A stretch of 64,000 bases of DNA from Immundisolibacterales bacterium (GCA_026712715.1 JAPOPW010000034.1:31720-95719), one strand, 5' to 3'. Numbered from the stretch's first letter, positions 7,020 through 63,868 are shown. The notes: generated by a model not told the origin, from the sequence alone. Translations and numbers: made by a program.

Positions 7020-7970
7020 TCAGCCACGCTTCGCATCGTCGCGTGCAAGGTGGCGAAACAGCTCGGCCTCGCGTTCGGCGAGAAGCCGTTCTCCGTCGCG
7101 TCGGCTCCCGTCGTAGACCCCGCGCCCGGACGGCAGGCCACGATGACCGGCCTCGACGAGGTCGGTGACCGCCCGGGCGGGCTGCGGGTCGTTGCGAAGG
7201 TGGGGAATCAGGTAGGCGCCGAAGGCGTGCAGGGTATCGAGCCCGCCGACATCCGCGGACTCGATGGGCCCGGTGATTGCCAGGCGGCGGCCGATGGACG
7301 CCTTTACCACCGTGTCGATCGCCTCCGCGGAGGCCGCCCCTTCCGACCAGAGCGCCCACGCCTCGCGCAGGATGGCGTACTGGAGCCGGTTGCCGAGGAA
7401 GCCCGGGATCTCCTTGTCGACGGTCACCGGCTCCTTGCCCGCCGCTCGCAGGACCTCGCAGAGCCACGGAGCCACGTCCGGATCGGTCTCCGGACCGGCG
7501 CACACCTCGACGAGCGGAATGAGCTGGGGCGGGTACCAGAAGTGGGCGGCGATGACCCGGCCGCGGTGGCGCACGTTCGCGACGAGGTCGCTCGCCGGCT
7601 GGCCGCTCCCGGAGGCGAACACCGTCGGGGGCGCGCAGATCCGGTCGAGCGCGCCGTAGACCTCGTCCTGGACCGCCTGGTCGGCGGGCACCGCCTCGAG
7701 GACGAGCTGGGCGGCGGCCGCGTCACCGAGGTCGGTAGAGGTACGGATGCGGGCGAACGCCGCCGCGACTTCCGCCGAGTCGAGGAGCCCGTGCGCCGCG
7801 AAGCTGGAGAGGCTCGCGCCGATCCGCTCCATCGCACCGGCGAGGCTCTCCTCGCGCCGCCCGATGAGTACCACCTCGCGGCCCGCGGCCGCGAAGATCT
7901 GAGCCATGCCGTGACCGATGAGTCCGTTTCCGACCACGGCGACGGTGTCGAGCGATGCGGGGACAGCCAC
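7020..7970 (-). CDS. 3-hydroxyacyl-CoA dehydrogenase family protein (NAD-binding)
   Basis: Track ORF 7020..7970. It has a GTG start preceded by AAGGAGGG. VAVVGNGLIGHGMAQ is the Rossmann GxGxxG motif, and HFWYPPQLIPLVEV is typical of the 3HCDH family. Confidence 0.8.
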   Translation of the reverse strand: MAVPASLDTVAVVGNGLIGHGMAQIFAAAGREVVLIGRREESLAGAMERIGASLSSFAAHGLLDSAEVAAAFARIRTSTDLGDAAAAQLVLEAVPADQAVQDEVYGALDRICAPPTVFASGSGQPASDLVANVRHRGRVIAAHFWYPPQLIPLVEVCAGPETDPDVAPWLCEVLRAAGKEPVTVDKEIPGFLGNRLQYAILREAWALWSEGAASAEAIDTVVKASIGRRLAITGPIESADVGGLDTLHAFGAYLIPHLRNDPQPARAVTDLVEAGHRGLPSGRGVYDGSRRDGERLLAEREAELFRHLARDDAKRG

Positions 7971-9635: not shown

Positions 9636-10811
9636 TCAGGCGCGGGCGAGGGCCTGGTCGAGGTCGGCGATGAGGTCCGCGGGGGTCTCGAGGCCGACCG
9701 AGAGGCGGATGAGGCCGTCCGTGATCCCGAGGCGGGCGCGCTCGTCGGGTGCGATGTTGGCGTGGGTCATGGTGGCCGGGTGGGTGACGAGCGATTCCAC
9801 CGTGCCGAGGTTCTCCGCGAGGCTCCAGAGCTCGACCGCGTCCATGACCCGCTTGCCGGCCGCGGCCCCGCCCCGCACCTCGCAGCACACCATCGCGCCG
9901 TAGCCGGAGGCCTGGCGGCCCGCGAGGGCGTGCTGGGGAAACGAGGGGAGCCCGGGGTAGAGCACCCGTTCGACGGTGGGGTGGCTCTCGAGGTACGACG
10001 CGACTTCCAGGGCCGCCGCAGACTGCGCGTCCATGCGGACCGACAGGGTCTTGCAACCCTGCAGGGTGAGCCACGCCACGAAGGGCGACATGATGCTCCC
10101 GGTCGCGTTCTGAACGAAGCGCACGGCTTCCACCTGCTCCTTCGTCGCGCAGACCACCGCTCCCCCCACGGTGGCGTTGTGCCCGTCCAGATACTTCGTC
10201 GTGGAGTGCACCACGAGGTCGGCGCCGAGCTCGAACGGACGCTGGCAGCAGGGCGTCAGCAGGGTGTTGTCCACCACGTGGAGGATGCCGCGGGCGCGTG
10301 CGACCTCGGAGACGGCGGCGATGTCGGTGAGCCTGAGGGTGGGATTCGCCGGGGTTTCGCTGAGGATGAGCCGGGTCTCGGCACGCACGCCCGCCAACAC
10401 CGCGGCGGGGTCCGAGGTATCGACGAAGGTGAAGTCCACCCCGAAGCGGGCGAGGATCTGCCGGCACAGGCGCAGGGTGCCTCCGAAGATCACGTCCGAC
10501 ACGACAGCGTGCTCGCCCGCCCCGAGATACGCGAGCAAGACGGTGTGAATCGCCGCCATTCCGGTTCCGAACGCGCACGCGTCCACCCCCCCTTCGAGCG
10601 CGGCGAGCTTCGTCTCGAGCGCATGCACGGTGGGGTTGTGGGACCGCGAATAGGAATAGCCCTTCTCCCGGTACCCGTCGACGGAGGGCTGCACGTAGGT
10701 CGTCGTCTGGTGAATGGGAGTGAGGATCGCCCCGGTCACGGGGTCGGGCTCGACCCCGGCGCGCACCTGCCGGGTCGCGAATCCTTCGTTCGGCCGGCTG
10801 CCGCGGCTCAT
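9636..10811 (-). CDS. Trans-sulfuration PLP enzyme (cystathionine gamma-synthase / beta-lyase family)
   Basis: Track ORF 9636..10811. YSRSHNPT, the PLP lysine in VVHSTTKYLDGH, and a GLIRLSVGLE C-terminal motif are present. Confidence 0.85.
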   Translation of the reverse strand: MSRGSRPNEGFATRQVRAGVEPDPVTGAILTPIHQTTTYVQPSVDGYREKGYSYSRSHNPTVHALETKLAALEGGVDACAFGTGMAAIHTVLLAYLGAGEHAVVSDVIFGGTLRLCRQILARFGVDFTFVDTSDPAAVLAGVRAETRLILSETPANPTLRLTDIAAVSEVARARGILHVVDNTLLTPCCQRPFELGADLVVHSTTKYLDGHNATVGGAVVCATKEQVEAVRFVQNATGSIMSPFVAWLTLQGCKTLSVRMDAQSAAALEVASYLESHPTVERVLYPGLPSFPQHALAGRQASGYGAMVCCEVRGGAAAGKRVMDAVELWSLAENLGTVESLVTHPATMTHANIAPDERARLGITDGLIRLSVGLETPADLIADLDQALARA

Positions 10812-10961
10812 GTCACCGGCCCCGGGCCGGGCGGCTCGCGCAGGGTCCCGGCCTCGGCCACTCCATGGCCCGCGCCCTTCGTCGGATCACCGTCCATCCG
10901 GATGAAGGAATGACCGGCGGGCCCCCGGTTGTCGATGAACCCGACGGAAGGCACACCGCCT

Positions 10962-11777
10962 CTATCCGGCGGCGCGCGGCGGCGGGCGGATCCCCCAGGG
11001 ACGCGCCCAGCCGAGGCCGGCCTCGGTCCCCGCCGCGGGCTGGTACTCGCAGCCGACCCATCCCTCGTATCCGAGCTCGTCGATGAGGGGGAGCAGCCAC
11101 GCGTAGTTGAGCTCTCCCGCATCGGGCTCCAGCCGGGCCGGCGGGCCGGCAATCTGGATGTGGCCGACGTTGCTGTCCGGGCCGTCACCGAGATACGCCA
11201 TCAGCTTCTCCGCCACCCCGCCTTCGACGATCTGGCAGTGGTAGAGGTCGAACTGGACCTTGACGTTCGGGGCCCCGACCTCGGCCACGAGGGCGTGCGC
11301 GTCGGCCTGCCGATTGAGCGGATAGCCGGGGTTGTCGCGCGGATTGAGCGGCTCGACGAGCAGGGTGACACCGTCCTCGGCCGCGCGCGGAGCCCCGGCC
11401 CGCAGGTTGGCGACGAAGGTTGCCCGGCTCTCCTCGCGGCTGGTGGCCGCATCCGGCATCCCCCACATCGCATGCAGCCGGGGACACCCGGTCGCCCGGC
11501 AATAGCGGAGCGCGAGCTCCAGCCCTTCCCGAAACTCCGCCTCACGACCCGGCAGCCCCCCGAGCCCGCGCTCCCCCTCCCCGCCGGGGGGCAGGTTGAA
11601 CAGGACCGCCTCGAGGTCGTGCTCGCGAAGCCGCTCCCGTATCGCCCGCTCGGACGCTTCGCCGTAAGGAAACTGGTGCTCGACGGCCTCGAAGCCGCAG
11701 GCCGCCGCCGCCCCGAACCGCTCCAGAAGCGGGCGCTCCGTGAAGAGATAGCTCAGATTGGCGGCGAGGCGGGGCAT
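10962..11777 (-). CDS. Hydroxypyruvate isomerase family protein (TIM-barrel, Hyi/OtnI-like)
   Basis: Track ORF 10962..11777. MPRLAANLSYLFTE..., KVQFDLYHCQI and GWVGCEYQP are typical of Hyi. Confidence 0.8.
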   Translation of the reverse strand: MPRLAANLSYLFTERPLLERFGAAAACGFEAVEHQFPYGEASERAIRERLREHDLEAVLFNLPPGGEGERGLGGLPGREAEFREGLELALRYCRATGCPRLHAMWGMPDAATSREESRATFVANLRAGAPRAAEDGVTLLVEPLNPRDNPGYPLNRQADAHALVAEVGAPNVKVQFDLYHCQIVEGGVAEKLMAYLGDGPDSNVGHIQIAGPPARLEPDAGELNYAWLLPLIDELGYEGWVGCEYQPAAGTEAGLGWARPWGIRPPPRAAG

Positions 11778-12044
11778 GGCCGCCGGATAATACCCAAGTG
11801 CGAGCCGCCCCGCTTCGCTCGATACGCGATAATGCGCGAAATGGATAGCGCGTCCCCCTGCCGATCCATCTCACCGAAACCCTTCCGCGGATCTCGTTCC
11901 GTACACGGCGACGGGCCGTGCGTGCACCGGCCGGTCCGCGGGAGCTTCGACGGGAGAGACGTCCGCATCGCGGCCTGCGACCGCGGGCGGATGCTTCGCG
12001 CCCGGCCGGCGTCCCGGGTCCTTCGAGCCGGACGCCGGTGACAG

Positions 12045-18217
<6,173 letters not shown>

Positions 18218-32921: not shown

Positions 32922-33872
32922 GTGACTCTCTCCGTCGCCATCCAGATGGACCATGTGAACGGCGTCGACATCGACGCCGACAGCACTTTCGCCCTCGCCC
33001 TCGAGGCGCAGCGCCGCGGCCACACCCTCTACCACTACCTGCCCTCGGATCTCAGTTTCCGCGACCGGCGGCTCACCGCCCACGCCCAGCCGCTCGTGGT
33101 CCGGCGCGAACACGGCGGACATGCTTCCCTCGGCGCCTTCGAGACGGTCGATCTCGCCCGGTTCGACGTCGTCCTGATGCGGCAGGACCCGCCCTTCGAC
33201 CTTGCGTACATCACGGCCACCCACCTCCTCGAGCACATCCACCCCGCGACCCTCGTCGTCAACGATCCGGTGAGCGTGCGGAACGCACCCGAGAAGCTGT
33301 TCGCGACCCACTTCCCGGAGCTGATGCCGCCGACCCTCATCACCAACCGCGCGGACGACATCCACGCCTTCCGCCACGAGCACCGCGACATCATCGTCAA
33401 GCCCCTGCACGGCAACGGCGGCGCGGGGGTCTTCCACCTCCGGCCGGGCGACGAAAACCTGAACGCGCTGCTCGAGATGTGCGGCCAGCTCTGGCGCGAG
33501 CCGCTCATGATCCAGCGCTATCTTCCCGAGGTGCAGGAGGGCGACAAGCGCATCATCCTCGTCGACGGCGAGCCGGCCGGCGCGGTCGCCCGCATGCCGG
33601 CGGCGGGCGAGGCGCGGGCGAACTTCCACGCCGGAGGCACGCCCCGCAAGTCCGCCCTCACCCCGCGCGACCGCGAGATCTGCGAGGCGCTGGGGCCGGT
33701 GCTGCGGGAAAGGGGCCTCGTATTCGTCGGGATCGACGTGATCGGCGACTGGCTCACCGAGATCAACGTGACGTCGCCGACCGGCATCCAGGAGATCGAT
33801 CGCCTCGACGGGATCCGCATCGAGGCCGCCGTCTGGGATGCGATCGAGCGCCGCCGCGCCGCGGGCGGCTGA
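32922..33872 (+). CDS. gshB: Glutathione synthetase
   Basis: This lies in track ORF 32766..33872. I start it at GTG 32922 ([34 protein letters not shown]...), matching the family N-terminus. [24 protein letters not shown] and EINVTSPTG motifs are present. Confidence 0.9.
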
Positions 33873-33961: not shown

Positions 33962-34588
33962 GTGCTGATCCTCGACGACATCCGCGCGGCCCTCGAACGC
34001 CCGCAGCCGGCGGACTCCGATCCGCCGTTCACCCCGGAGTGGCGCAACGCCTCCGTCGCGATGGCGCTCGCCGGGGACGGCGACGGGCTGGAGACCTGCT
34101 TCATCCTGCGCACCGAGCGCGACGGCGATCCGTGGTCGGGCCAGGTCGCGTTCCCCGGCGGACGGGCCGAGCCCGGGGACGCCGATGCCGCGGCGGTCGC
34201 GGAACGCGAGACGTTCGAGGAGATCGGGCTTCGCCTCGCGCGCGGGCAATGCGTCGGCGCCCTTCCCGTCCAGCCGCTCCATCGCATCGGTCCGCGCGGC
34301 TCCCTCTCCCCCTTCGTCTACCACCTGGGTGCGGGGTTCACGCGCGGCGGCGAGGCGGGCTGGCGGGCCACCCTCAGCCACGAAGTGAGCGAGGCGTTCT
34401 GGGTGCCGCTCCGCCATCTCTTCGATCCCGGCGCGGCGACCACCATCGAATGGGTGCGTCCCGGCCGGCCGGAAACCACGCACGCGGGAATCGAGTTCGA
34501 GGGGCACGTCATCTGGGGCCTCACCCTGCGGGTGCTCGGCACGTTCGCCGAGCTGGTCGGCAAGCGGCTTCCCGCCCTCGACCCCTGA
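33962..34588 (+). CDS. NUDIX hydrolase (CoA pyrophosphatase-like)
   Basis: This is the C-terminal part of track ORF 32609..34588, starting at GTG 33962. It has the Nudix box GQVAFPGGRAEPGDADAAAVAERETFEEIGL. Confidence 0.8.
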   Translation: MLILDDIRAALERPQPADSDPPFTPEWRNASVAMALAGDGDGLETCFILRTERDGDPWSGQVAFPGGRAEPGDADAAAVAERETFEEIGLRLARGQCVGALPVQPLHRIGPRGSLSPFVYHLGAGFTRGGEAGWRATLSHEVSEAFWVPLRHLFDPGAATTIEWVRPGRPETTHAGIEFEGHVIWGLTLRVLGTFAELVGKRLPALDP

Positions 34589-34671
34589 CCGTCCCGCTCC
34601 GGGAGCCTCCGGCCTGCCGACTTCGAGGAGCCGGCCCGACCGTTCGACCCCGACCGGGGAGGAAATCCGAA

Positions 34672-35469
34672 ATGAGCGACGACATCCTCTACGAGAAGCA
34701 CGGCCACGTTAGGCTCATCACCATCAACCGGCCGGCGCGCATGAACTCCATGGACTTCGCGGCGAACGACGCGCTCATCGAGCGCTGGAAGGAGTTCGAC
34801 GCGGATGACGACGCCCGGTGCGCGGTGATCACCGGCGCCGGGGACCGTTCGTTCTGCGCCGGGGCGGACCTCAAGACCTACACGATGGCCTACGCCACCA
34901 CCCCGGTCCCGGAATTCCGCCGGCGGTTCACGAACGGCCCGGGGTTCGGCGGGATCACCCGGAACCTCCCCGTCTTCAAGCCCATCGTCGCGGCGGTGAA
35001 CGGCTACGCGGTGTCCGGGGGACTCGAGCTCGCCCTCGCGGCCGACATCCGCTTCTGCTCGGAGCAAGCCCGGTTCGGGCTCCAGGACACGCGCTGGGGC
35101 TTTCACGCGTGCGACGGGGCGCTGGTGCGCCTGAAGGAGATCGTCGGGCTCGGCAGCGCGATGGAGATGATCCTCTCGGGCGATCTCGTCGACGCCGAGC
35201 ACGCATTCCGGATCGGCCTCGTGAACCGAATCGTCGACGCCGAGCGCCTCGTCGCCGAATCCCTCGACTACGCCGCCCGGCTCGCGAGCCGCGCCCCCCT
35301 GCCGCAGCGGATGGCCAAGGAGGTCATGCACCGCATCCACGGCATGAGCCTGGACGAGGCGCTTCGCCTCGAGTCCGACTCGTTCCGCGATCTCGGCGAC
35401 ACCCGCGACCTCGAAGAGGGGACGCGCGCGTTCCGGGAAGGCCGCGACGCCGTGTTCACCGGCCGGTAG
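34672..35469 (+). CDS. Enoyl-CoA hydratase/isomerase (crotonase) family protein
   Basis: This is the C-terminal part of track ORF 33838..35469. ATG 34672 is preceded by GGGGAGGAAA. VRLITINRPARMNSM, ITGAGDRSFCAGADLK and GYAVSGGLELALAAD are present. Confidence 0.9.
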   Translation: MSDDILYEKHGHVRLITINRPARMNSMDFAANDALIERWKEFDADDDARCAVITGAGDRSFCAGADLKTYTMAYATTPVPEFRRRFTNGPGFGGITRNLPVFKPIVAAVNGYAVSGGLELALAADIRFCSEQARFGLQDTRWGFHACDGALVRLKEIVGLGSAMEMILSGDLVDAEHAFRIGLVNRIVDAERLVAESLDYAARLASRAPLPQRMAKEVMHRIHGMSLDEALRLESDSFRDLGDTRDLEEGTRAFREGRDAVFTGR

Positions 35470-35517
35470 CGCGCGCCCGGGCCCGAGGAACGCCGGCGCG
35501 GCAAACGCGGCGCCGTC

Positions 35518-35718
35518 CGGGAGAACGTGCCGCCACAGCACCCGGGACGACGCCATGCCGATCGCCTGCGAGGCTTCGATGAACGGACGCGGCCGGATGG
35601 TGACGACCACCGAGCGCATGACCGCCGCCACCCGCGTGGTATAGGCGATGGCGACGGCGAGGATCACGTTCACCGTGACGCCCATCAGGAGCAGCCTGCG
35701 CACTACATGGCACAGCAT
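35518..35718 (-). pseudogene. Remnant of a peptide/nickel-type ABC transporter permease (internally deleted and 3' truncated)
   Basis: This is the first 67 aa of track ORF 34318..35718. MLCHVVRRLLLMGV resembles the DppB/OppB-type N-terminus (MLxYxxRRLL). It is fused directly to ...RPRPFIEASQAIGMASSRVLWRHVLP, the conserved late-loop region. The frame then runs antisense into the crotonase gene. Confidence 0.6.
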
Positions 35719-35803
35719 CCGTGATTACTCGAACCGGACGGCCTCGGCCCGCGACCCGTAGGACGGGAGCGGAGCCGGGGCCGGGGCTGACTTCCGGGGA
35801 CGG

Positions 35804-35974
35804 CTACTCGCCGAGCGACACCCTGTAGGTATTGACGGAGAAGAGGGAATTCTGCACCAGCCCCTGCACGTGGTTGCCATGGGCGAGGAACAGCCGATCG
35901 GCATAGAGGGGCAGCACCGGGACGTCCTCCATGGTCTCGGCGAGGATCTCGTGGCCCGAGTGCCGACGAGGAGC
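35804..35974 (-). pseudogene. C-terminal 56-aa remnant of an ABC transporter substrate-binding protein (family 5)
   Basis: My translation is APRRHSGHEILAETMEDVPVLPLYADRLFLAHGNHVQGLVQNSLFSVNTYRVSLGE*, a typical SBP_bac_5 C-terminus. It begins immediately after the stop codon of the DinB gene and has no start codon or N-terminal part. Confidence 0.6.
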
Positions 35975-36739
35975 TCAGGTTTCGTCCCACACCTTCTCGG
36001 TGAGGGGGAGCCCCTTGATGTCCTCGGCCGTGAGCGGTGCGTCCGGCTCTACTCCCGTCTGCTCGAGCAGCGAGGCGAGCTGGCGCACGTGCTGGGTCGA
36101 GTGCCACACCGTGCGCTCGAGCATCTCGTGCCGGGTGGTGGTGCCGAAATAGACTTCCATCTCGCGATCGAAGTCTTCGTCGGCCACCTCGTTCCACCAC
36201 CCGTGGAACCGGTCTCGAGTCCGCTCGCCGAATGCGGCGATGTCGGCGCTCGAGCGGATTTCGTCGGGCGGCGGGGCGGTGAGGTCCTCGTAACGCATGG
36301 GAGTCCCGGACGCGTCCATGTCGAGAAAGGCGTTCGGGATCTGGAACAGGTGATGCATCAGGCCCCGCCACGAACGGGGCCGATTGGGAAGCTCGTTCTC
36401 GAGCCGGTCGTCCGGCATCTGCCGGGTGAGGCGGACGGCGGTCGCAAGCACGCGGCGGTAGCGTTCGGCGAGCTCGGCGGGAGAGAGCTGCGGCCGGGTA
36501 TCGTCGCCCAGGCCGAGAAAGTCCACGACGTCCTTGATGACCTGGGCGAAGACGAACTCGCTCCCCCGGGACACGACCGGGACCGAACGGGCACCCAGCG
36601 ACCTCAGGCGCTCAAGCCCGCCTTCGTCCTCGAGAACGTTTACCGATTCGAACTCGATCCCACGGACCGAGAGGTATTCCTTTACCCTGAGACAACTGGT
36701 TCAGTGCGGTTGCCAGAAGACCGCGATGGCGTCGGCCAT
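35975..36739 (-). CDS. Glutaredoxin-like / DinB-family fusion protein with in-frame TGA at the first Cys position of the CxxC motif (candidate selenoprotein or fresh pseudogene)
   Basis: Track ORF 35975..36574 is the DinB part (HHLFQIP..., WHSTQHVRQL His motifs; confidence ~0.85 on its own). The same frame continues upstream through a single TGA (36701-36703) to ATG 36737-36739, preceded by GGAG. That stretch reads MADAIAVFWQPH-TGA-TSCLRVKEYLSVRGIEFESVNVLEDEGGLERLRSLGARSVPVVSRGSEFVFAQ..., a glutaredoxin fold with U/stop-TSC where CxxC is expected. Confidence 0.55.
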
Positions 36740-36820
36740 GCCGATTTCTCCAGTTGCCGGGACAGGTGAATCGCGCCAGTTTAACCCATCGCACGCCGCC
36801 CCGCCGGGACCCGGGCACCC

Positions 36821-39349
36821 TCAATCGAAGTCGCGCGCCACCCGAAGACCGACGTTGCGATGGATGGCGTAGGCGATCCCGCTTCGATTCGCAGAACGCA
36901 TGCTCCAGGGACGATTGAGCCAGGAGCCGCCACGCAGCGTCCGGAACACGCACTTGCCGCCGAACTCCGCCGCCAGGTAGGCGCTTCCGTCAACCGGGGC
37001 TCCTTCGTAGGTCTTGCGCCAGCAATCCTCCGTCCACTCCCAGACGTTCCCGTGCACGTCGTGCAGGCCGAACGGGTTCGGGGGGAACGAGCCGACCGGA
37101 GCCGTCCGCTTCTGTCCGTCCCACTCGGACTTGCAGCCGGAACAGTTCGCCCGGCCCTTCCCCACCTTCCGGCCCCAGGAGTACCGGGAAGTCGAACCCG
37201 CCCGGGCCGCGTACTCCCACTCGGCCTCGGTCAGCAGGCGGTAGGGCTCGCCCGTCTTCCGCGAGAGCCACTTCACGTACGCGCGCGCGTCCTTCCAGCG
37301 CACACCGACGACGGGACGGCGGCCTTTTCCCCAGCCCTGATCGTCGGGGTTTCTTTTGCAGGCCCCGGCACGAAAACACGATTCCCATTCGGCGAAGGTC
37401 ACCTCGTATCGTCCCACCGCCAACGGCTCGGAGATGGATACGCGGCGCTGCGGTCCTTCGTCGTCGGAGCGGCCCATCTCCGTCCGGGGCGAGCCCATCA
37501 GGTAGCTTCCGGCCGGAACCACCACCATCTCCGGACACTCGCGGCAGTCCCGGAACGTCCGCCCGGGGGTGCGCTCCTCGGCGCGTCGCACCGCCGCGGC
37601 ACGTAGCCCGCGAATCTCCGCGGCGCCGGGACTGTCCCGATGCGACCGGAGATAGTCGTCGTAGGCAGCGACCGTGGCGACGCGAATCGCGCGCGCATGC
37701 GCCGCCCGTTCCGCGCGCCTCGCCTCTTCCCGCCGACGCTCTTCCTCGCGCCGCTTCGCCTCCGCGGCGAGCCGCTCGCGCTCCAGGCGTTCCTGAAGCT
37801 CGCGGCGGGCCGACTCCTCCCGGAGCTCCGTTTCGCGCCGGAACGCGTCGGCCAGGAAGCGTCCCTGCGGTTGCGTGAGCCGGTACTGCTCGAAGCCCTC
37901 GATCGTATCGAGCTGCTCTGCAAGCGCGAACGCCGCTTCATCCGCACGACGCTCCTTCTCACGGCCTCTTTCTTCGGCCGCGAGCCGCTCGCGGGCCAGG
38001 CGCTCCTCCTCCGCCCGGCGTGCCTCTTCTTCGGCCAGGCGCTCGCGCTCGAGCCGTGCTGCCGCGGCCACACGGGCCTCCTCGGCCCGGCGAGCGGCCT
38101 CCCGGCGCTCCGCGTCCGCCACCGCCGCCACCAGCGCGTCGACCTCCCCGCGAGTGAGAAATCCCGTCACCGGCTTGCCGTTGGCCGCCTGGTAGTCGCG
38201 GATCGCGCCGCGCGTCCTCGGACCGAACTTGCCGTCCGCGGCGCCGACGTCGAAGCCGAGAGACGCAAGGCTGCGTTGGACCATGGTCCGGTCCGCCCGC
38301 ACGAGATCCAGGGTCATCTCTCGCGCCGCCGCCAGCTCGACCGGCAGGGGCGACGTCTCGCTCGCGCCATCGGCCGGGCCGCCGGCCGCCGTTCCCGCTC
38401 CGGGCGTCTTCGATCCCTCTCGCTCGTCGCCGGCCGACTCGAGCATCGGCCGGGCTGGATACGTTCCTTCCGATGCGATCGCAACCACCGTCTCCGTCCG
38501 CCCGATGAGGCTCGCGCGCTGCCGCCGCTTGAACTTCCTCCGAACCGCCCGCGTCATGTGACGGTCGAGATACCGCTTCACCTCCCGTGCAGTCACCCGG
38601 CCGTCCTGATTCCGATCACCCTTGCCGTACAGGGCATCTAGGAGATGGTGGGTGAACGCTCCATGCCCCGCCTCCTCATCCCAGGACGCGAGTTGGGCCT
38701 TCGACGCAGCGGTCAGCACCGTGAACCGCCCGTGCGTCTGCACGGGAAGGCTCGCCTCCACGTAGACCGGCGAGGCTGAGCGAACCAGCGTCCCGCCGGG
38801 GCTGTCCCCGGAGAAGCACGCGTCGAGGTACATCGTGACCGAGCGCGCCTCCGTGAGCTTCGCGAGGTTCCCGTAGAGCACGTCGATGGGGAATCCGTTG
38901 ATCTCCGCGGTGTCGGCGTGGGCGTCCGACGGTAGCAGGTACCCCCGGCCGTCCTTCTGGCCCGGCACCCCGTGGCCGGAGTAGTAGACGACGACGTCCG
39001 AACCGCCCTCCGGATTCAGATAGCTCCAGAGATCGCCCTCGCCGCCGTGCTCGCGCTCATTGCCGAAGGTGGTTTCGAGCTCCACCTTCGTGGCGTCGCG
39101 CAGATCGATGATGTTCTCCGGGTCGTAACCGAGCACGTCGAGCACGTAGCGCTTGAACGCCTCCGCATCACGATGCGCGAAGTCCACCGACGGCACGCGG
39201 TCGTTCACGTAGTTGCGGTTGCCGACGATGACCGCGACGCCGTCCGGGTTGGCGAACTCCGCCCGCGCGGTGGCGAGGGGAGCGGACGCGGCCGCAGCGG
39301 CGGCTGCGAGCAGGACGCTCCTGGCGAGCGTGCGGACGTTCTTCACCAT
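36821..39349 (-). CDS. Secreted caspase-like peptidase (C14) + peptidoglycan-binding domain + coiled coil + SUMF1/EgtB/PvdO (FGE-sulfatase) domain protein, paralog 1
   Basis: Track ORF 36821..39637, started at ATG 39349, preceded by GGAGAG. The signal peptide ends ...ATARA/EFANP. The caspase dyad is YYSGHG (H126) and LDACFSG (C178). The PG_binding_1-like module is GAADGKFGPRTRGAIRDYQ. There is a Glu/Arg-rich coiled coil. FGE-type motifs are MVVVPAGSYLMGS, HGNVWEWTEDCW and LRGGSW. Confidence 0.85.
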   Translation of the reverse strand: MVKNVRTLARSVLLAAAAAAASAPLATARAEFANPDGVAVIVGNRNYVNDRVPSVDFAHRDAEAFKRYVLDVLGYDPENIIDLRDATKVELETTFGNEREHGGEGDLWSYLNPEGGSDVVVYYSGHGVPGQKDGRGYLLPSDAHADTAEINGFPIDVLYGNLAKLTEARSVTMYLDACFSGDSPGGTLVRSASPVYVEASLPVQTHGRFTVLTAASKAQLASWDEEAGHGAFTHHLLDALYGKGDRNQDGRVTAREVKRYLDRHMTRAVRRKFKRRQRASLIGRTETVVAIASEGTYPARPMLESAGDEREGSKTPGAGTAAGGPADGASETSPLPVELAAAREMTLDLVRADRTMVQRSLASLGFDVGAADGKFGPRTRGAIRDYQAANGKPVTGFLTRGEVDALVAAVADAERREAARRAEEARVAAAARLERERLAEEEARRAEEERLARERLAAEERGREKERRADEAAFALAEQLDTIEGFEQYRLTQPQGRFLADAFRRETELREESARRELQERLERERLAAEAKRREEERRREEARRAERAAHARAIRVATVAAYDDYLRSHRDSPGAAEIRGLRAAAVRRAEERTPGRTFRDCRECPEMVVVPAGSYLMGSPRTEMGRSDDEGPQRRVSISEPLAVGRYEVTFAEWESCFRAGACKRNPDDQGWGKGRRPVVGVRWKDARAYVKWLSRKTGEPYRLLTEAEWEYAARAGSTSRYSWGRKVGKGRANCSGCKSEWDGQKRTAPVGSFPPNPFGLHDVHGNVWEWTEDCWRKTYEGAPVDGSAYLAAEFGGKCVFRTLRGGSWLNRPWSMRSANRSGIAYAIHRNVGLRVARDFD

Positions 39350-39652
39350 GCTGTTCTCTCTCCTGCACGAAGCGGTCTGCGGCCAGGTATCCGCCTGCCT
39401 TCCGTGCAGCGGGTGGCCAGTGGAACCTCCGGTACCTGGCCCGTAAATGGAAGGTCCGGAAACCATTCTCGAAAACATCGCCTCGGGCCGCAACCGCGAA
39501 GGCGCATTCGCACGGCCCGGGCCGGGCGACGGTTCGGGCCGGACCGCGCCAGCGCGCGCGGCGGGACCGCGGGAGGGCGGCAATTTCACGCCCGTTCCTT
39601 CCATTGGCGGCACTGTACGATTACCGCATTCACTCACGAGAGGAACCGAACC

Positions 39653-62061: not shown

Positions 62062-63753
62062 ATGGCCGCGACGAGCTCGGGCGGGGCAGCGCGCGACGAC
62101 TGGCGCGTCATGTTGACGCAGGAGCGGATCGATTCCGCCACCGCGGCCGGCCACTGGCCGGACCGCACCGCCGGCGACTATCTCGACGCGGGGCTGGACA
62201 GCCATCCGGACAAGGTCTTCCTCACCGGCTATCGCACCGAGACCGGGACCCGCCAAACCTTCTCCTATCGCGACATCGACCGGATCTCGCGGCGGATCGG
62301 CGCAGGACTCGCAGCCCACGGCATCGGCAAGGGAGACGTGGTCGCGTTCCAGCTCCCCAACTGGTGGGAGTTCGCGGCCCTGCACCTCGCGTGCGTGCGG
62401 ATCGGCGCGATCTCGAATCCCCTGATGCCCATCTTCCGGGCCCGCGAGCTCGAGTTCATGCTGTCGTTCGCCGAGCCCCGCGCCCTCGTCATCCCCCGCG
62501 TCTTCCGCGGGTTCGAGTACGAGCCGATGATCGACGGGCTGCGCGGGAGGCTTCCGGATCTCGCGCACGTCTTCGTTCTCGGAGGCGAAGGCGAGAACGG
62601 GTTCGAATCCACCTTGATCGAGCGGCGCTGGGAGGACGAGGTCGATACCCGGGCGCTGTTCGACGAGCGGCGGGTCGATCCCAACGAGGTGATCGAGATC
62701 TGCTACACGTCCGGCACCACCGGACAGCCGAAGGGGGTGATGCACACCAGCAACACCCTCGCCGCCTGCGTGGGCATCGGCCCCGCCCGCCTCGGACTCG
62801 GGTCGGACACCGTCGTTCTCATGGCCTCGCCGCTCGCTCACCAGACCGGCTATCTCTACGGACTCCTGTTGCCGATCCGGCTCGGCGCGCGGACCGTGCT
62901 GCAGGACGTCTGGGACCCGACCACGGCGGCCCGCATCATCCACGACGAGCAGGTCACGTTCACCATGGGCGCGACCCCGTTCCTCGCCGATCTCGCCCAC
63001 GCGGACGCGCTCGAACGCTATCCGACCGAGTCGCTCGAGGTGTTCATCACCGCCGGCGCTCCGGTTCCCCGGGTGCTGGTGCAGACCGCGACGCAGCGCC
63101 TGGGGACGAACGTCGTCGCGGGCTGGGGGATGACCGAGAACGGCCTCGTCACCTGCACGCTCGCCGGGGACCCGCCGGAGAAGGTCTTCGGGTCCGACGG
63201 CGGGTCATGGGACGGGATGGAGGTGCGGGTCGTGGACGCGGCACGAAAGCCGGCGCCGCCGGGGGTGTCCGGCGATCTCCAGGCGCGGGGCGCAGCCAAC
63301 TTCGTCGGCTATCTCAAGCGGCCGGAAGCCTTCGCGACGGACGACGACGGGTGGTTCGACACCGGCGACATCGCCTCGATGGACGAGAGCGGCTACATCC
63401 GCATCACCAGCCGTGCGAAGGACATCATCATCCGCGGCGGCGAGAACGTCCCCGTCGTCGAGGTGGAGGAGCTCCTCTACCGGCACGACGCGGTGAGCGA
63501 TGCGTCCATCGTCGCGATGCCCGACCCCCGAATGGGAGAGCGCGGCTGCCTGTTCGTCACCTTGCGCCCGGGTGGATCGCTCGACTTCGCGTCGATGCAG
63601 CGTTACCTCGAGGAGAAGCAGCTCGCCAAGCAGTACTGGCCGGAGCGGCTCGAGATCATCGACGAGATGCCGCGTACCCCGAGCGGCAAGATCCAGAAGT
63701 TCAAGCTGCGCGAGATCGCCTCCGGGCTCGAACCGGACGAAGCGCGGGCGTAG
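62062..63753 (+). CDS. AMP-dependent acyl-CoA synthetase/ligase (cyclohexanecarboxylate/medium-chain type)
   Basis: This lies in track ORF 62023..63753, starting at ATG 62062, preceded by GGGAGAG. It has the AMP-binding motif I YTSGTTGQPKGV, then GWGMTE, FDTGDIA and PRTPSGKIQKFKLR. Confidence 0.85.
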   Translation: MAATSSGGAARDDWRVMLTQERIDSATAAGHWPDRTAGDYLDAGLDSHPDKVFLTGYRTETGTRQTFSYRDIDRISRRIGAGLAAHGIGKGDVVAFQLPNWWEFAALHLACVRIGAISNPLMPIFRARELEFMLSFAEPRALVIPRVFRGFEYEPMIDGLRGRLPDLAHVFVLGGEGENGFESTLIERRWEDEVDTRALFDERRVDPNEVIEICYTSGTTGQPKGVMHTSNTLAACVGIGPARLGLGSDTVVLMASPLAHQTGYLYGLLLPIRLGARTVLQDVWDPTTAARIIHDEQVTFTMGATPFLADLAHADALERYPTESLEVFITAGAPVPRVLVQTATQRLGTNVVAGWGMTENGLVTCTLAGDPPEKVFGSDGGSWDGMEVRVVDAARKPAPPGVSGDLQARGAANFVGYLKRPEAFATDDDGWFDTGDIASMDESGYIRITSRAKDIIIRGGENVPVVEVEELLYRHDAVSDASIVAMPDPRMGERGCLFVTLRPGGSLDFASMQRYLEEKQLAKQYWPERLEIIDEMPRTPSGKIQKFKLREIASGLEPDEARA

Positions 63754-63868
63754 GCCCGAGCCCGAGCCCGGCCCCCGTCCCCCGGCCGACCCTCGGGCGA
63801 CCGCGGGGGCGGCTGGCGCGGGGAACCGCGGATGCGGCCGCCTCCGTCCGAGAGCGGCCCGGCCGGGC

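What the first reader, a model, noticed from the sequence alone, without database searches (positions are those of the whole stretch)
35975..36739. In-frame TGA exactly at the first Cys of the CxxC motif of a glutaredoxin-like/DinB fusion: candidate selenoprotein (U-T-S-C)
Reading upstream of the track's DinB ORF in the same frame gives an ATG (36737-36739) with a GGAG RBS. The product is MADAIAVFWQPH-[TGA 36701-36703]-TSCLRVKEYLSVRGIEFESVNVLEDEGGLERLRSLGARSVPVVSRGSEFVF.... This is a textbook glutaredoxin beta-alpha-beta start, and the stop codon replaces the N-terminal redox Cys.

UxxC thioredoxin-fold selenoproteins are well established in bacteria.

Downstream mRNA can form two hairpins:
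- GGGUA-AAGGAA-UACCU starts 13 nt after UGA.
- CUCGGUCC-GUG-GGAUCGAG starts 29 nt after UGA.

I cannot judge whether either is a valid bacterial SECIS.

The alternative is a single-base TGC/TGT-to-TGA nonsense mutation. That is plausible because the neighbouring genes are debris. In that case DinB would be re-initiated from GTG 36574.
Basis: partly seen in the sequence, partly recalled or inferred. Interest (0 to 1): 0.7.

Follow-up and report, generated by a model that had tools for sequence, protein, structure and literature searches.

The report
Selenocysteine glutaredoxin–DinB fusion gene
The in-frame TGA is almost certainly a genuine selenocysteine codon in an intact gene for a redox enzyme (glutaredoxin domain fused to a DinB domain) whose family is widespread in bacteria but is truncated by gene callers and missing from the selenoprotein catalogues I could search.

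Summary
A minus-strand ORF (ATG 36739, GGAG RBS, terminator 35975) carries one in-frame TGA (36703-36701) at the first Cys of the glutaredoxin CxxC, and a DinB domain follows.

It is not a pseudogene:
- All 80 species-level genomic homologues plus the window (81/81) have TGA there, never TAA/TAG, although their real terminators vary.
- The peptide upstream of the TGA is under strong purifying selection (pN/pS 0.05).
- More distant full-length homologues have an invariant Cys at that position.
- Of 71 conserved four-fold codons, only three consecutive ones (+33..+41 after the UGA) have frozen third positions. A distant subfamily keeps one of its pairs through a compensatory U-A to C-G change.
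- In seven Hyphomicrobiaceae-type genomes the gene sits directly upstream of selA-selB, and tRNA-Sec was called just after selB in five of them. In at least four it follows a GRDB-like UxxC selenoprotein gene.

Sec-machinery genes are not within the 64 kb window, so the trait is unverified for this genome. No NCBIfam model or searched catalogue covers a Grx-DinB selenoprotein. I file it as a new family of a well-known kind.

The parts
35975..36739 (-). Complete coding sequence of the Sec-containing glutaredoxin-DinB fusion protein (254 codons including Sec13; stop codon included)
   Evidence: reading frame; Pfam Grx + DinB_2/DinB; tblastn matches to query residues 1-254 in 80 loci; same organisation in 81/81 sequences
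36748..36751 (-). Shine-Dalgarno-like GGAG, 8 nt upstream of the ATG
   Evidence: Read directly
36737..36739 (-). Start codon ATG, 12 codons upstream of the Sec codon
   Evidence: In one search a Met (rarely Val/GTG) sits at this position, 12 codons before the TGA, in nearly all 80 homologues
36701..36703 (-). UGA selenocysteine codon (residue 13), first position of the U-T-S-C redox motif
   Evidence: TGA in 81/81 and never TAA/TAG, while true terminators are TGA/TAG/TAA; this column is an invariant Cys in 26 divergent full-length homologues. TGC in the near-identical Cys form
36653..36671 (-). SECIS hairpin: 8-bp stem CUCGGUCC/GGAUCGAG with apical GUG (C-GUG-G); the loop begins 36-37 nt after the UGA
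   Evidence: -10.1 kcal/mol, 1 of 200 shuffles as stable. RNAalifold consensus; 93% of cells paired, compensatory changes; third positions of Ser-Val-Arg codons at +33..+41 have 0-0.1 bits against >=0.77 bits at all 68 other four-fold sites; meets the published bSECIS criteria. U-A to C-G compensatory change in the distant subfamily L087
36672..36687 (-). Weak upstream hairpin GGGUA-AAGGAA-UACCU, directly abutting the SECIS stem; possibly an auxiliary or coaxially stacked extension, not a SECIS by itself
   Evidence: -4.0 kcal/mol and no G in the first two loop positions, so it fails the bSECIS criteria; the fifth pair is broken in 49/79 sequences; the Arg codon third position (+17) is G in 80/80, which hints at some RNA constraint
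36554..36727 (-). Glutaredoxin/NrdH-like thioredoxin-fold domain (residues 5-62)
   Evidence: PF00462, 40.6 bits against a cutoff of 22.9; closest solved: Grx 7c10, NrdH 4hs1/1h75; beta1 at residues 5-9, then a helix from residue 14
36044..36436 (-). DinB/YfiT-type four-helix-bundle domain (residues 102-232)
   Evidence: PF12867, 30.9 bits against a cutoff of 24.8; Foldseek: 6iz2 DR0053, TM 0.84 normalised by target; also 3dka, 2p1a, 1rxq YfiT
36350..36352 (-). His130 codon, first member of the predicted metal-binding His triad
   Evidence: Invariant (H128 in P0020 numbering); triad role inferred from DinB superfamily structures (PMC10950700)
36089..36103 (-). His213 and His217 codons (W-H-S-T-Q-H), remaining members of the predicted His triad
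   Evidence: Invariant (H211, H215 in P0020 numbering)
35975..35977 (-). True terminator, also TGA, showing that UGA is a normal stop in this organism

Best explanation
This is an intact selenoprotein gene.

How it works:
1. Translation starts at ATG 36739.
2. At UGA 36703-36701, the SECIS hairpin 30-50 nt downstream in the mRNA (36671-36653, apical loop C-GUG-G) recruits SelB carrying Sec-tRNA(Sec). Selenocysteine is inserted instead of termination.
3. The 254-residue product has a U13-T-S-C16 selenenylsulfide redox centre at the start of helix 1 of a glutaredoxin/NrdH-like fold.
4. That domain is rigidly joined to a DinB/YfiT-type four-helix bundle carrying an invariant His triad (H130, H213, H217).

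Shown by comparison: the recoding signature, the RNA constraint, the Sec/Cys pairing and the linkage to the sel genes.

Inferred:
- By analogy with DinB-superfamily metal-dependent low-molecular-weight-thiol S-transferases, the DinB domain binds a metal and a thiol (glutathione in Proteobacteria).
- The Sec-glutaredoxin domain, acting in cis, reduces or resolves the resulting mixed disulfide or selenenylsulfide intermediate. This would be a GST-like division of labour built from different parts.
For: Recoding signature:
- 81/81 sequences have TGA at this codon, never TAA/TAG, while their terminators are a mix of TGA/TAG/TAA.
- A Met start lies 12 codons upstream in nearly all.
- The 8 codons upstream of the TGA have pS 0.72, pN 0.035, ratio 0.05.
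- Gene callers truncate almost all close homologues to 199-240 aa.

Sec/Cys pair:
- 26 divergent full-length homologues have invariant C13 and C16.
- P0020 is a TGC form that still carries the hairpin.
- Two distant subfamilies (L086, L087) also have TGA at the same site.

SECIS:
- Synonymous sites are frozen only at +33..+41.
- The hairpin has -10.1 kcal/mol and a loop starting with GU 36-37 nt from the UGA, which fits the published model.
- RNAalifold and pair counts support it.
- L087 has a compensatory U-A to C-G change. L086 has a different hairpin with a GUU loop 23 nt from the UGA.

Machinery linkage:
- selA-selB lie immediately downstream on the same strand in L023, L043, L046, L051, L056 and L060; in L063 the contig ends within selA. 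tRNA-Sec (tca) was called just after selB in L023, L043, L046, L051 and L056.
- A GRDB-family UxxC gene with its own TGA lies immediately upstream in at least 4 of them.

UGA is a normal stop here: the gene itself ends in TGA.

Domains and fold.
Against: - No selA, selB, selD or tRNA-Sec lies within the 64 kb window, so the Sec trait is not demonstrated for this genome.
- The loop-to-UGA spacing (36-37 nt) is at the extreme upper limit of the published 16-37 nt range.
- Covariation in the main hairpin is sparse. Most of the evidence is invariance, and part of that could be amino-acid constraint.
- The minimum free energy of the whole 69-nt stretch is no better than shuffles (z = 0.05).
- The flanking ABC-transporter operon has decayed in this genome.
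- There is no experimental evidence of Se incorporation for any member.
- The biochemical role of the DinB domain is inferred only from superfamily membership.
Confidence: 0.9

Rival explanations
1. Pseudogene: a recent TGC/TGT-to-TGA nonsense mutation killed the glutaredoxin part, and only a DinB protein is made, by re-initiation at GTG 36574.
For: The neighbouring ABC-transporter operon is reduced to fragments in this genome. A mechanical ORF of 199 aa starts at GTG 36574. A single base separates TGA from TGC.
Against: - The TGA is present in 81/81 sequences from several phyla, so it is ancestral and not a recent lesion.
- The peptide upstream of the TGA and the 41 codons between the TGA and GTG 36574 are strongly conserved at the protein level while synonymous sites vary.
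- The window copy keeps the start codon, RBS, consensus hairpin and all invariant residues.
Confidence: 0.03
2. Relic in this particular genome: the gene is still intact in sequence, but the host lineage has lost the Sec machinery. The UGA then terminates, and the locus is on its way to decay or to Cys conversion.
For: No sel genes or tRNA-Sec in the window. No other selenoprotein candidate in the window. Local gene decay next door. Sec-to-Cys conversion does occur in this family.
Against: - 64 kb is about 1% of a genome of this type, so absence from the window is uninformative.
- The copy shows no disabling change.
- It is 98% identical to P0002 and 85-88% identical to L001-L003, all with the TGA and an identical hairpin core. 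That would not be expected after loss of function.
Confidence: 0.05
3. The UGA is decoded by something other than Sec, such as a reassigned genetic code, near-cognate read-through (Trp/Cys/Arg), or a programmed frameshift.
For: Read-through in frame is all that sequence conservation strictly proves.
Against: - UGA is used as the terminator of this very gene and of about 30 orthologues, so the code is not reassigned.
- The frame is unchanged across the UGA.
- The position aligns with a catalytic Cys.
- A SECIS-type hairpin is under selection.
- The gene is co-located with selA-selB-tRNA-Sec.
Confidence: 0.02

Closest known systems
Sec-containing glutaredoxins (Grx, PF00462, UxxC; e.g. WP_010943784.1) and the generic 'Grx' / 'Grx-like' UxxC families of the Sargasso Sea and GOS selenoproteomes (PMC1088965, PMC2398784, PMC13188914)
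   Same: Thioredoxin/glutaredoxin fold. Sec replaces the N-terminal Cys of CxxC at the start of helix 1. Decoded by a coding-region SECIS. Cys homologues exist.
   Different: Those are single-domain proteins of about 80-120 aa with other motifs (TUPWC, GUPYC). They share only 28% identity over 60 residues with this N-terminal domain. This family is 250 aa with a C-terminal DinB domain and an invariant WQPH-U-TSC motif. Short-read 'Grx' hits in those surveys may have included members, but this could not be checked.
ArsC-like 'arsenate reductase-like' selenoprotein with a U-T-S-C motif (MDE3003982.1, NF041106; deep-Sep supplement)
   Same: Identical UTSC tetrapeptide and a similar following helix (48% identity over 21 residues).
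   Different: Similarity stops after 21 residues. It is a 115-aa ArsC/Spx-type protein with no DinB domain. The NCBIfam models do not reach their cutoffs.
DinB/YfiT (S-transferase-like, STL) superfamily: BstA/YfiT bacillithiol transferases, mycothiol S-transferase MST, DR0053 (PMC10950700; PDB 6iz2, 1rxq)
   Same: Four-helix bundle (TM 0.84 to 6iz2). Three invariant His in the positions of the metal triad. Pfam DinB_2 is above threshold.
   Different: Known members are stand-alone, have no selenocysteine and have no fused redoxin. Sequence identity is 9-19%. No activity has been tested for this family.
Bacterial SECIS consensus (bSECISearch model) and the E. coli fdhF SECIS
   Same: Stem-loop in the coding region downstream of the UGA. 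Small apical loop with G followed by U in the N1-G-[G/U]-N-N2 pattern. Stem of 7-8 bp. MFE below -7.5 kcal/mol.
   Different: The spacing of 36-37 nt is at the upper limit of the model. A second weak hairpin fills the gap between the UGA and the SECIS stem. There is no sequence resemblance to fdhF.
Canonical glutathione S-transferases and Grx2 (thioredoxin-fold N-domain plus helical C-domain)
   Same: Same order of a thiol-binding Trx-fold domain followed by an all-helical domain.
   Different: Structural superposition is poor (TM about 0.3, rmsd 13 Å). The helical domain is a DinB bundle, not a GST C-domain. This is analogy only, not membership.

Membership tests
Bacterial selenoprotein gene (Sec-UGA decoded through SECIS/SelB) | In-frame UGA aligned with Cys in homologues (Sec/Cys pair) | tested here: met
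   invariant Cys at this column in 26 divergent full-length homologues; a TGC form differs by one base.
Bacterial selenoprotein gene (Sec-UGA decoded through SECIS/SelB) | The stop is specifically UGA and is conserved among orthologues | tested here: met
   TGA in 81/81, no TAA/TAG; terminators vary. TGA also in two distant subfamilies.
Bacterial selenoprotein gene (Sec-UGA decoded through SECIS/SelB) | Protein-level conservation on both sides of the UGA in one frame | tested here: met
   pN/pS 0.05 upstream and 0.13 downstream; tblastn matches from residue 1.
Bacterial selenoprotein gene (Sec-UGA decoded through SECIS/SelB) | Downstream stem-loop meeting the bSECIS model (loop 3-9 nt, stem 4-16 bp, G in the first two loop positions, 16-37 nt spacing, MFE <= -7.5 kcal/mol) | tested here: met
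   Criteria from PMC13188914. Hairpin 2: 8 bp, loop GUG, 36-37 nt (upper limit), -10.1 kcal/mol. Synonymous sites frozen. Pairs kept in 93% of cells.
Bacterial selenoprotein gene (Sec-UGA decoded through SECIS/SelB) | selA, selB, selC and selD present in the same genome | tested here: inconclusive
   Not in the 64 kb window; the rest of the genome is unavailable. In seven orthologous loci selA lies directly downstream, followed by selB in six and by a called tRNA-Sec in five. selD was not seen in any flank.
Bacterial selenoprotein gene (Sec-UGA decoded through SECIS/SelB) | Selenium actually incorporated (75Se labelling or MS) | not testable with these tools
   Experimental.
Glutaredoxin / NrdH-like redoxin (PF00462) | Pfam score above the gathering threshold; beta-alpha-beta start with the CxxC at the N-terminus of helix 1; cis-Pro motif | tested here: met
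   40.6 bits against 22.9; strand at residues 5-9, helix at 14-25; invariant P52 in the (S/G)VP motif.
NrdH / YruB / mycoredoxin / Uxx-star equivalogs (NCBIfam) | Score at or above the curated cutoff of the model | tested here: not met
   best scores are 40.9 against 88.55 (YruB), 39.3 against 85.75 (NrdH) and 29.1 against 66 (Uxx-star). Not a member of any named redoxin equivalog.
DinB/YfiT (STL) superfamily | Four-helix bundle with a conserved metal-binding His triad | tested here: met
   DinB_2 30.9 bits against 24.8. TM 0.84 to 6iz2. H128, H211 and H215 invariant (window H130, H213, H217). Metal binding itself was not tested.
DinB/YfiT (STL) superfamily | Low-molecular-weight-thiol S-transferase activity | not testable with these tools
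   Biochemical; inferred from PMC10950700.
Catalogued small Sec-glutaredoxin family (e.g. WP_010943784.1) | Single-domain protein of about 80-120 aa closely related in sequence | tested here: not met
   254 aa with a DinB domain. Only 28% identity over 60 residues to a catalogued Sec-Grx. The motifs WQPHU and PRSWR are absent from the deep-Sep family sequences.

The most novel reading that the evidence does not exclude
This may be an uncatalogued, widespread selenoprotein family and the first selenocysteine-containing member of the DinB/S-transferase-like superfamily. It would be a GST-like enzyme assembled from a Sec-glutaredoxin and a metal-binding DinB bundle.

In Hyphomicrobiaceae it is embedded in a 'selenium island' (GRDB-like selenoprotein, Grx-DinB, selA, selB, tRNA-Sec). 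That placement leaves open a more adventurous reading: that its function is tied to selenium handling itself, or that it is a principal reason the Sec trait is retained in these lineages.
Probability: 0.5. Interest if true: 0.6.

Novelty: new member of a known kind. Interest (0 to 1): 0.5.

Why it matters
- Annotation. Essentially every database entry for the close homologues of this gene is truncated (199-240 aa labelled 'DinB family protein', 'NrdH-redoxin, partial' or hypothetical). The catalytic redox centre is therefore missing from over a thousand protein clusters across Alpha-, Beta- and Gammaproteobacteria, Planctomycetota and others. A curated model would fix this and would add a marker for the Sec trait in uncultured soil and marine lineages.
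- Biology. A Sec-for-Cys swap flags the CxxC as the catalytic centre of a Grx-DinB fusion. That gives a concrete, testable handle on what DinB-type thiol transferases do in glutathione-using bacteria, where their substrates are unknown.
- Evolution. The family offers natural Sec and Cys versions, including a one-base Sec-to-Cys derivative that still carries its SECIS, and at least two different SECIS solutions at the same site. This is useful material for studying Sec/Cys exchange and SECIS evolution.

Tried and rejected
- Rfam gathering scan of the window: no hit. Rfam gave no hit for this hairpin, so this says nothing either way.
- Single-sequence folding of the 69 nt after the UGA: z-score 0.05, not informative in 70% GC sequence. 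The argument was moved to comparative evidence.
- Hairpin 1 as the SECIS: rejected. It has -4.0 kcal/mol, no G at the loop start, and its fifth pair is broken in most species. It may still act as an extension of the structure, because +17 is invariant.
- Search of the window for selA/selB/selD (tblastn with the E. coli proteins) and for tRNA-Sec: nothing found.
- Scan of the window for other UxxC/CxxU in-frame TGAs in high-GC3 frames: one unconvincing candidate.
- Conserved-neighbourhood analysis over 81 loci: no universal partner. Amidase, SDR and ABC substrate-binding genes recur in only 11-16 loci, so no operon-based functional inference is possible outside the sel-linked clade.
- Whole-chain structural matches to GSTs: rejected as membership evidence (TM about 0.3, rmsd 13 Å).
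- The ArsC-like UTSC selenoprotein as the same family: rejected, because similarity is limited to 21 residues.
- The V126G substitution in the window copy as a sign of decay: rejected, because this column is variable in the wider family.
- BSepDB supplements: none are held, so that catalogue could not be checked.

Full report
OBSERVATION. On the minus strand an ORF starts at ATG 36739-36737, preceded by GGAG at 36751-36748. It runs 254 codons to TGA 35977-35975 and contains one in-frame TGA at 36703-36701. The product reads MADAIAVFWQPH-[UGA]-TSCLRVKEYLSVRGIEF.... Pfam finds Glutaredoxin at residues 5-62 (E=3e-10, 40.6 bits against a cutoff of 22.9) and DinB_2/DinB at residues 102-232.

IS THE TGA A LESION OR A CODON? 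A search of 5.8 billion proteins returned 1285 homologues at E<=1e-10. Nearly all close ones are called as 199-240 aa proteins that begin at L/M-RVKEYL or later, just past the CxxC. Only P0020 (252 aa) is full length, and it has Cys: VFWQPHCTSC.

I then fetched the DNA of 80 species-level genomic homologues from Alpha-, Beta- and Gammaproteobacteria, Planctomycetota and Acidimicrobiales MAGs. In all 80, and in the window, the codon is TGA and never TAA or TAG, inside an almost invariant VFWQPH-TGA-TSCLRVKEYLSVRGIE context. The same genes terminate with a mixture of TGA, TAG and TAA, and a Met lies 12 codons upstream of the TGA in nearly all.

The eight codons before the TGA have pS 0.72 but pN 0.035 (ratio 0.05). 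The peptide upstream of the 'stop' is therefore under strong purifying selection in the same frame as the rest. This rules out a recent nonsense mutation and rules out GTG 36574 as the real start. UGA is an ordinary terminator in these organisms, since the window gene itself ends in TGA. A reassigned code is therefore excluded.

SEC/CYS PAIR. A HMMER search of 1.84 billion cluster representatives found 523 relatives at E<=1e-10, many of them full-length (250-276 aa) at 30-46% identity. In an alignment of 26 of these, C13 and C16 of a WQP[G/H]-C-[S/T]-S-C motif are invariant. So are H128, H211 and H215 of the DinB half, plus R207, R217 and Q218. The UGA therefore replaces the invariant catalytic Cys.

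The DNA of the Cys form P0020 differs at this codon by one base (TGC) and still carries the complete downstream hairpin. It is a very recent Sec-to-Cys derivative. Two more distant subfamilies (about 37-39% identity) also have TGA at exactly this position: L086 with QPG-TGA-SSC and L087 with QPG-TGA-TSC.

SECIS. Column statistics over 80 sequences showed that neighbouring third-codon positions vary freely while +17, +35, +38, +41 and +44 are invariant or nearly so. I quantified this over the whole gene. Of 71 conserved four-fold-degenerate codons, 68 have third-position entropies of 0.77-1.92 bits. The other three, Ser-Val-Arg at +33..+41, have 0-0.1 bits. Arg there is always CGT, in genomes of about 70% GC. 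pS falls from about 0.72 to 0.46 in the 20 codons after the UGA.

RNAalifold recovers its core independently. 93% of cells are paired, and pairs 43-59, 45-57 and 42-60 are kept through changes on both sides in a few sequences.

Against the published bacterial SECIS model (3-9 nt loop, 4-16 bp stem, G in the first two loop positions in the pattern N1-G-[G/U]-N-N2, 16-37 nt spacing, MFE <= -7.5 kcal/mol; PMC13188914), hairpin 2 passes all four criteria:
- an 8-bp stem;
- loop context C-GUG-G;
- 36-37 nt spacing;
- -10.1 kcal/mol, with 1 of 200 shuffles as stable.

The spacing is at the upper limit, which is the main structural oddity. Hairpin 1 fails, with -4.0 kcal/mol, loop AAGGAA, and its fifth pair broken in 49 of 79 sequences. 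However, it abuts hairpin 2 without a spacer and its +17 G is invariant. It may extend the structure toward the UGA by stacking; this is my inference.

The distant subfamilies give independent support. L087 has UCGGCCC-GUG-GGGUCGA, in which the U-A pair of the main family is replaced by C-G. L086 has a different 8-bp hairpin, ACGAAAGA-GUU-UCUUUCGU, with a GU-led triloop 23 nt from the UGA.

SEC MACHINERY. The window contains no tRNA-Sec and no selA/selB/selD (tblastn with the E. coli proteins). That is uninformative for about 1% of a genome.

In seven Hyphomicrobiaceae-type loci, however, selA lies directly downstream of the Grx-DinB gene on the same strand. These are L023, L043, L046, L051, L056 and L060, plus L063, where the contig ends within selA. 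selB follows selA in the first six. ARAGORN called tRNA-Sec (anticodon TCA) just after selB in L023, L043, L046, L051 and L056. In L023 the layout is:
- Grx-DinB, 10001-10771;
- selA, 10865-12283;
- selB, 12280-14205;
- tRNA-Sec, 14298-14393.

Immediately upstream in at least L023, L046, L051 and L063 is a GRDB-family (PF07355) gene, itself interrupted by a TGA in a U-P-F-C motif. This is the PrdB/GrdB-like family already known from marine selenoproteomes (PMC2398784). So in this lineage two UxxC selenoprotein genes and the Sec-insertion genes form one cluster.

THE PROTEIN. AlphaFold2 on the Cys form gives pLDDT 94.8 and pTM 0.91. That implies a fixed inter-domain arrangement. The N-terminal half is a Grx fold with the redox motif between strand 5-9 and helix 14-25, followed by a helical bundle.

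The N-terminal half is closest to small Grx/NrdH redoxins (7c10, E=7e-15). The C-terminal half superposes on DinB/YfiT proteins (6iz2 with TM 0.84 over the target; also 3dka, 2p1a and 1rxq). DinB-superfamily enzymes are four-helix-bundle metalloproteins with a His triad. They include bacillithiol, mycothiol and glutathione S-transferases (PMC10950700). Whole-chain hits to GSTs are poor (TM about 0.3) and reflect only the shared layout of a Trx-fold domain plus a helical domain.

My mechanistic proposal is inferred, not shown. The DinB domain binds metal and glutathione and acts on an electrophile or oxidised substrate. The Sec13/Cys16 centre in cis resolves the resulting mixed disulfide through a selenenylsulfide. 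A gshB gene lies 3 kb away in the window, but no neighbour is conserved across the family.

THE WINDOW COPY. It is 98% identical to P0002 and 85-88% identical to L001-L003. It keeps the start, RBS, TGA, consensus hairpin and all invariant residues. Its V126G difference falls in a column that varies in the wider family.

Relative to L002/L003 the window has lost about 1, 1.3 and 2.6 kb blocks immediately downstream. What remains is an ABC substrate-binding-protein tail and a permease fragment. The gene itself is colinear with its orthologues.

COMPARISON WITH WHAT IS KNOWN. UxxC thioredoxin-fold selenoproteins, including Grx, are a long-established kind. This family itself does not appear in the sources I could search:
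- No NCBIfam model comes near its cutoff.
- Full-text searches for selenoprotein plus DinB find nothing relevant.
- The 2026 review of prokaryotic selenoprotein families has no DinB entry.
- The deep-Sep family sequences lack the WQPHU and PRSWR signatures.
- The catalogued Sec-Grx and the ArsC-like UTSC protein are only marginally similar.
- Sources name the truncated products 'DinB family protein', 'NrdH-redoxin, partial' or 'hypothetical'.

Caveats: BSepDB could not be inspected, and short-read 'Grx' or 'Grx-like' hits in the Sargasso and GOS surveys may have included members.

VERDICT. This is a real selenocysteine codon in an intact gene (confidence about 0.9). The residual doubt is whether this particular genome still has the machinery. 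I file it as a new family within a well-known kind. It is moderately interesting for its breadth, its systematic mis-annotation, its sel-operon linkage and for being a Sec-bearing DinB enzyme.

Noticed in passing
window 34318-35974 (minus strand): Remnants of a peptide-type ABC transporter operon lie directly downstream of the gene: a C-terminal tail of about 50 aa from a substrate-binding protein, and a permease fragment (PF00528). Relative to L002/L003 the window lacks blocks of about 1, 1.3 and 2.6 kb here, so this operon has decayed by deletion in this genome.
   Followed up: partly
L023 8691-9914 (also L046, L051, L063): A GRDB-family (PF07355) gene with its own in-frame TGA in a U-P-F-C motif lies immediately upstream of the Grx-DinB gene. 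It forms a cluster of GRDB-like(U), Grx-DinB(U), selA, selB and tRNA-Sec. Gene callers split it into two ORFs.
   Followed up: partly
L004 287-350: A truncated duplicate of the first ~62 nt of the gene (ATG...CAGCCGCAC-TGA-ACCAGC...) lies about 1.5 kb upstream of the real copy and then diverges. It is probably a rearrangement scar.
   Followed up: partly
window 63712-63802 (minus strand): ARAGORN calls a 91-nt 'tRNA-Pro (cgg)' with the anticodon at position 39. The sequence is GC-rich and repetitive (gggctcgggctcgggc), and Rfam's gathering scan found no tRNA there, so it is most likely a false positive.
   Followed up: partly
window 36821-39637 (minus strand): The upstream neighbour is a large secreted-looking protein that combines a caspase (Peptidase_C14) domain, a peptidoglycan-binding domain, a long Glu/Arg/Ala-rich coiled region and a C-terminal FGE-sulfatase (SUMF1-like) domain. 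This is an unusual architecture.
   Followed up: no
window 32946-33872 (plus strand): A prokaryotic glutathione synthetase (gshB; PF02951 + PF02955) lies about 3 kb from the Grx-DinB gene, and an enoyl-CoA hydratase at about 34675-35469. The proximity to gshB is suggestive for a glutathione-dependent enzyme, but it is not conserved in other loci.
   Followed up: partly
L050 about 7150-7210; L078 5517 onward: L050 has an N-terminal tandem TETI repeat (MTETITETITETITETIKVFWQPH) before the conserved motif. In L078 the ORF ends after only 167 codons past the Sec codon, which suggests a pseudogene or an assembly error in that MAG.
   Followed up: no
L086 195-260: A distant Sec-containing subfamily (QPG-U-SSC) uses a different SECIS from the main family. 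It is a perfect 8-bp hairpin, ACGAAAGA-GUU-UCUUUCGU, with its loop 23 nt after the UGA. So the SECIS has been re-invented or has migrated within one protein family.
   Followed up: partly
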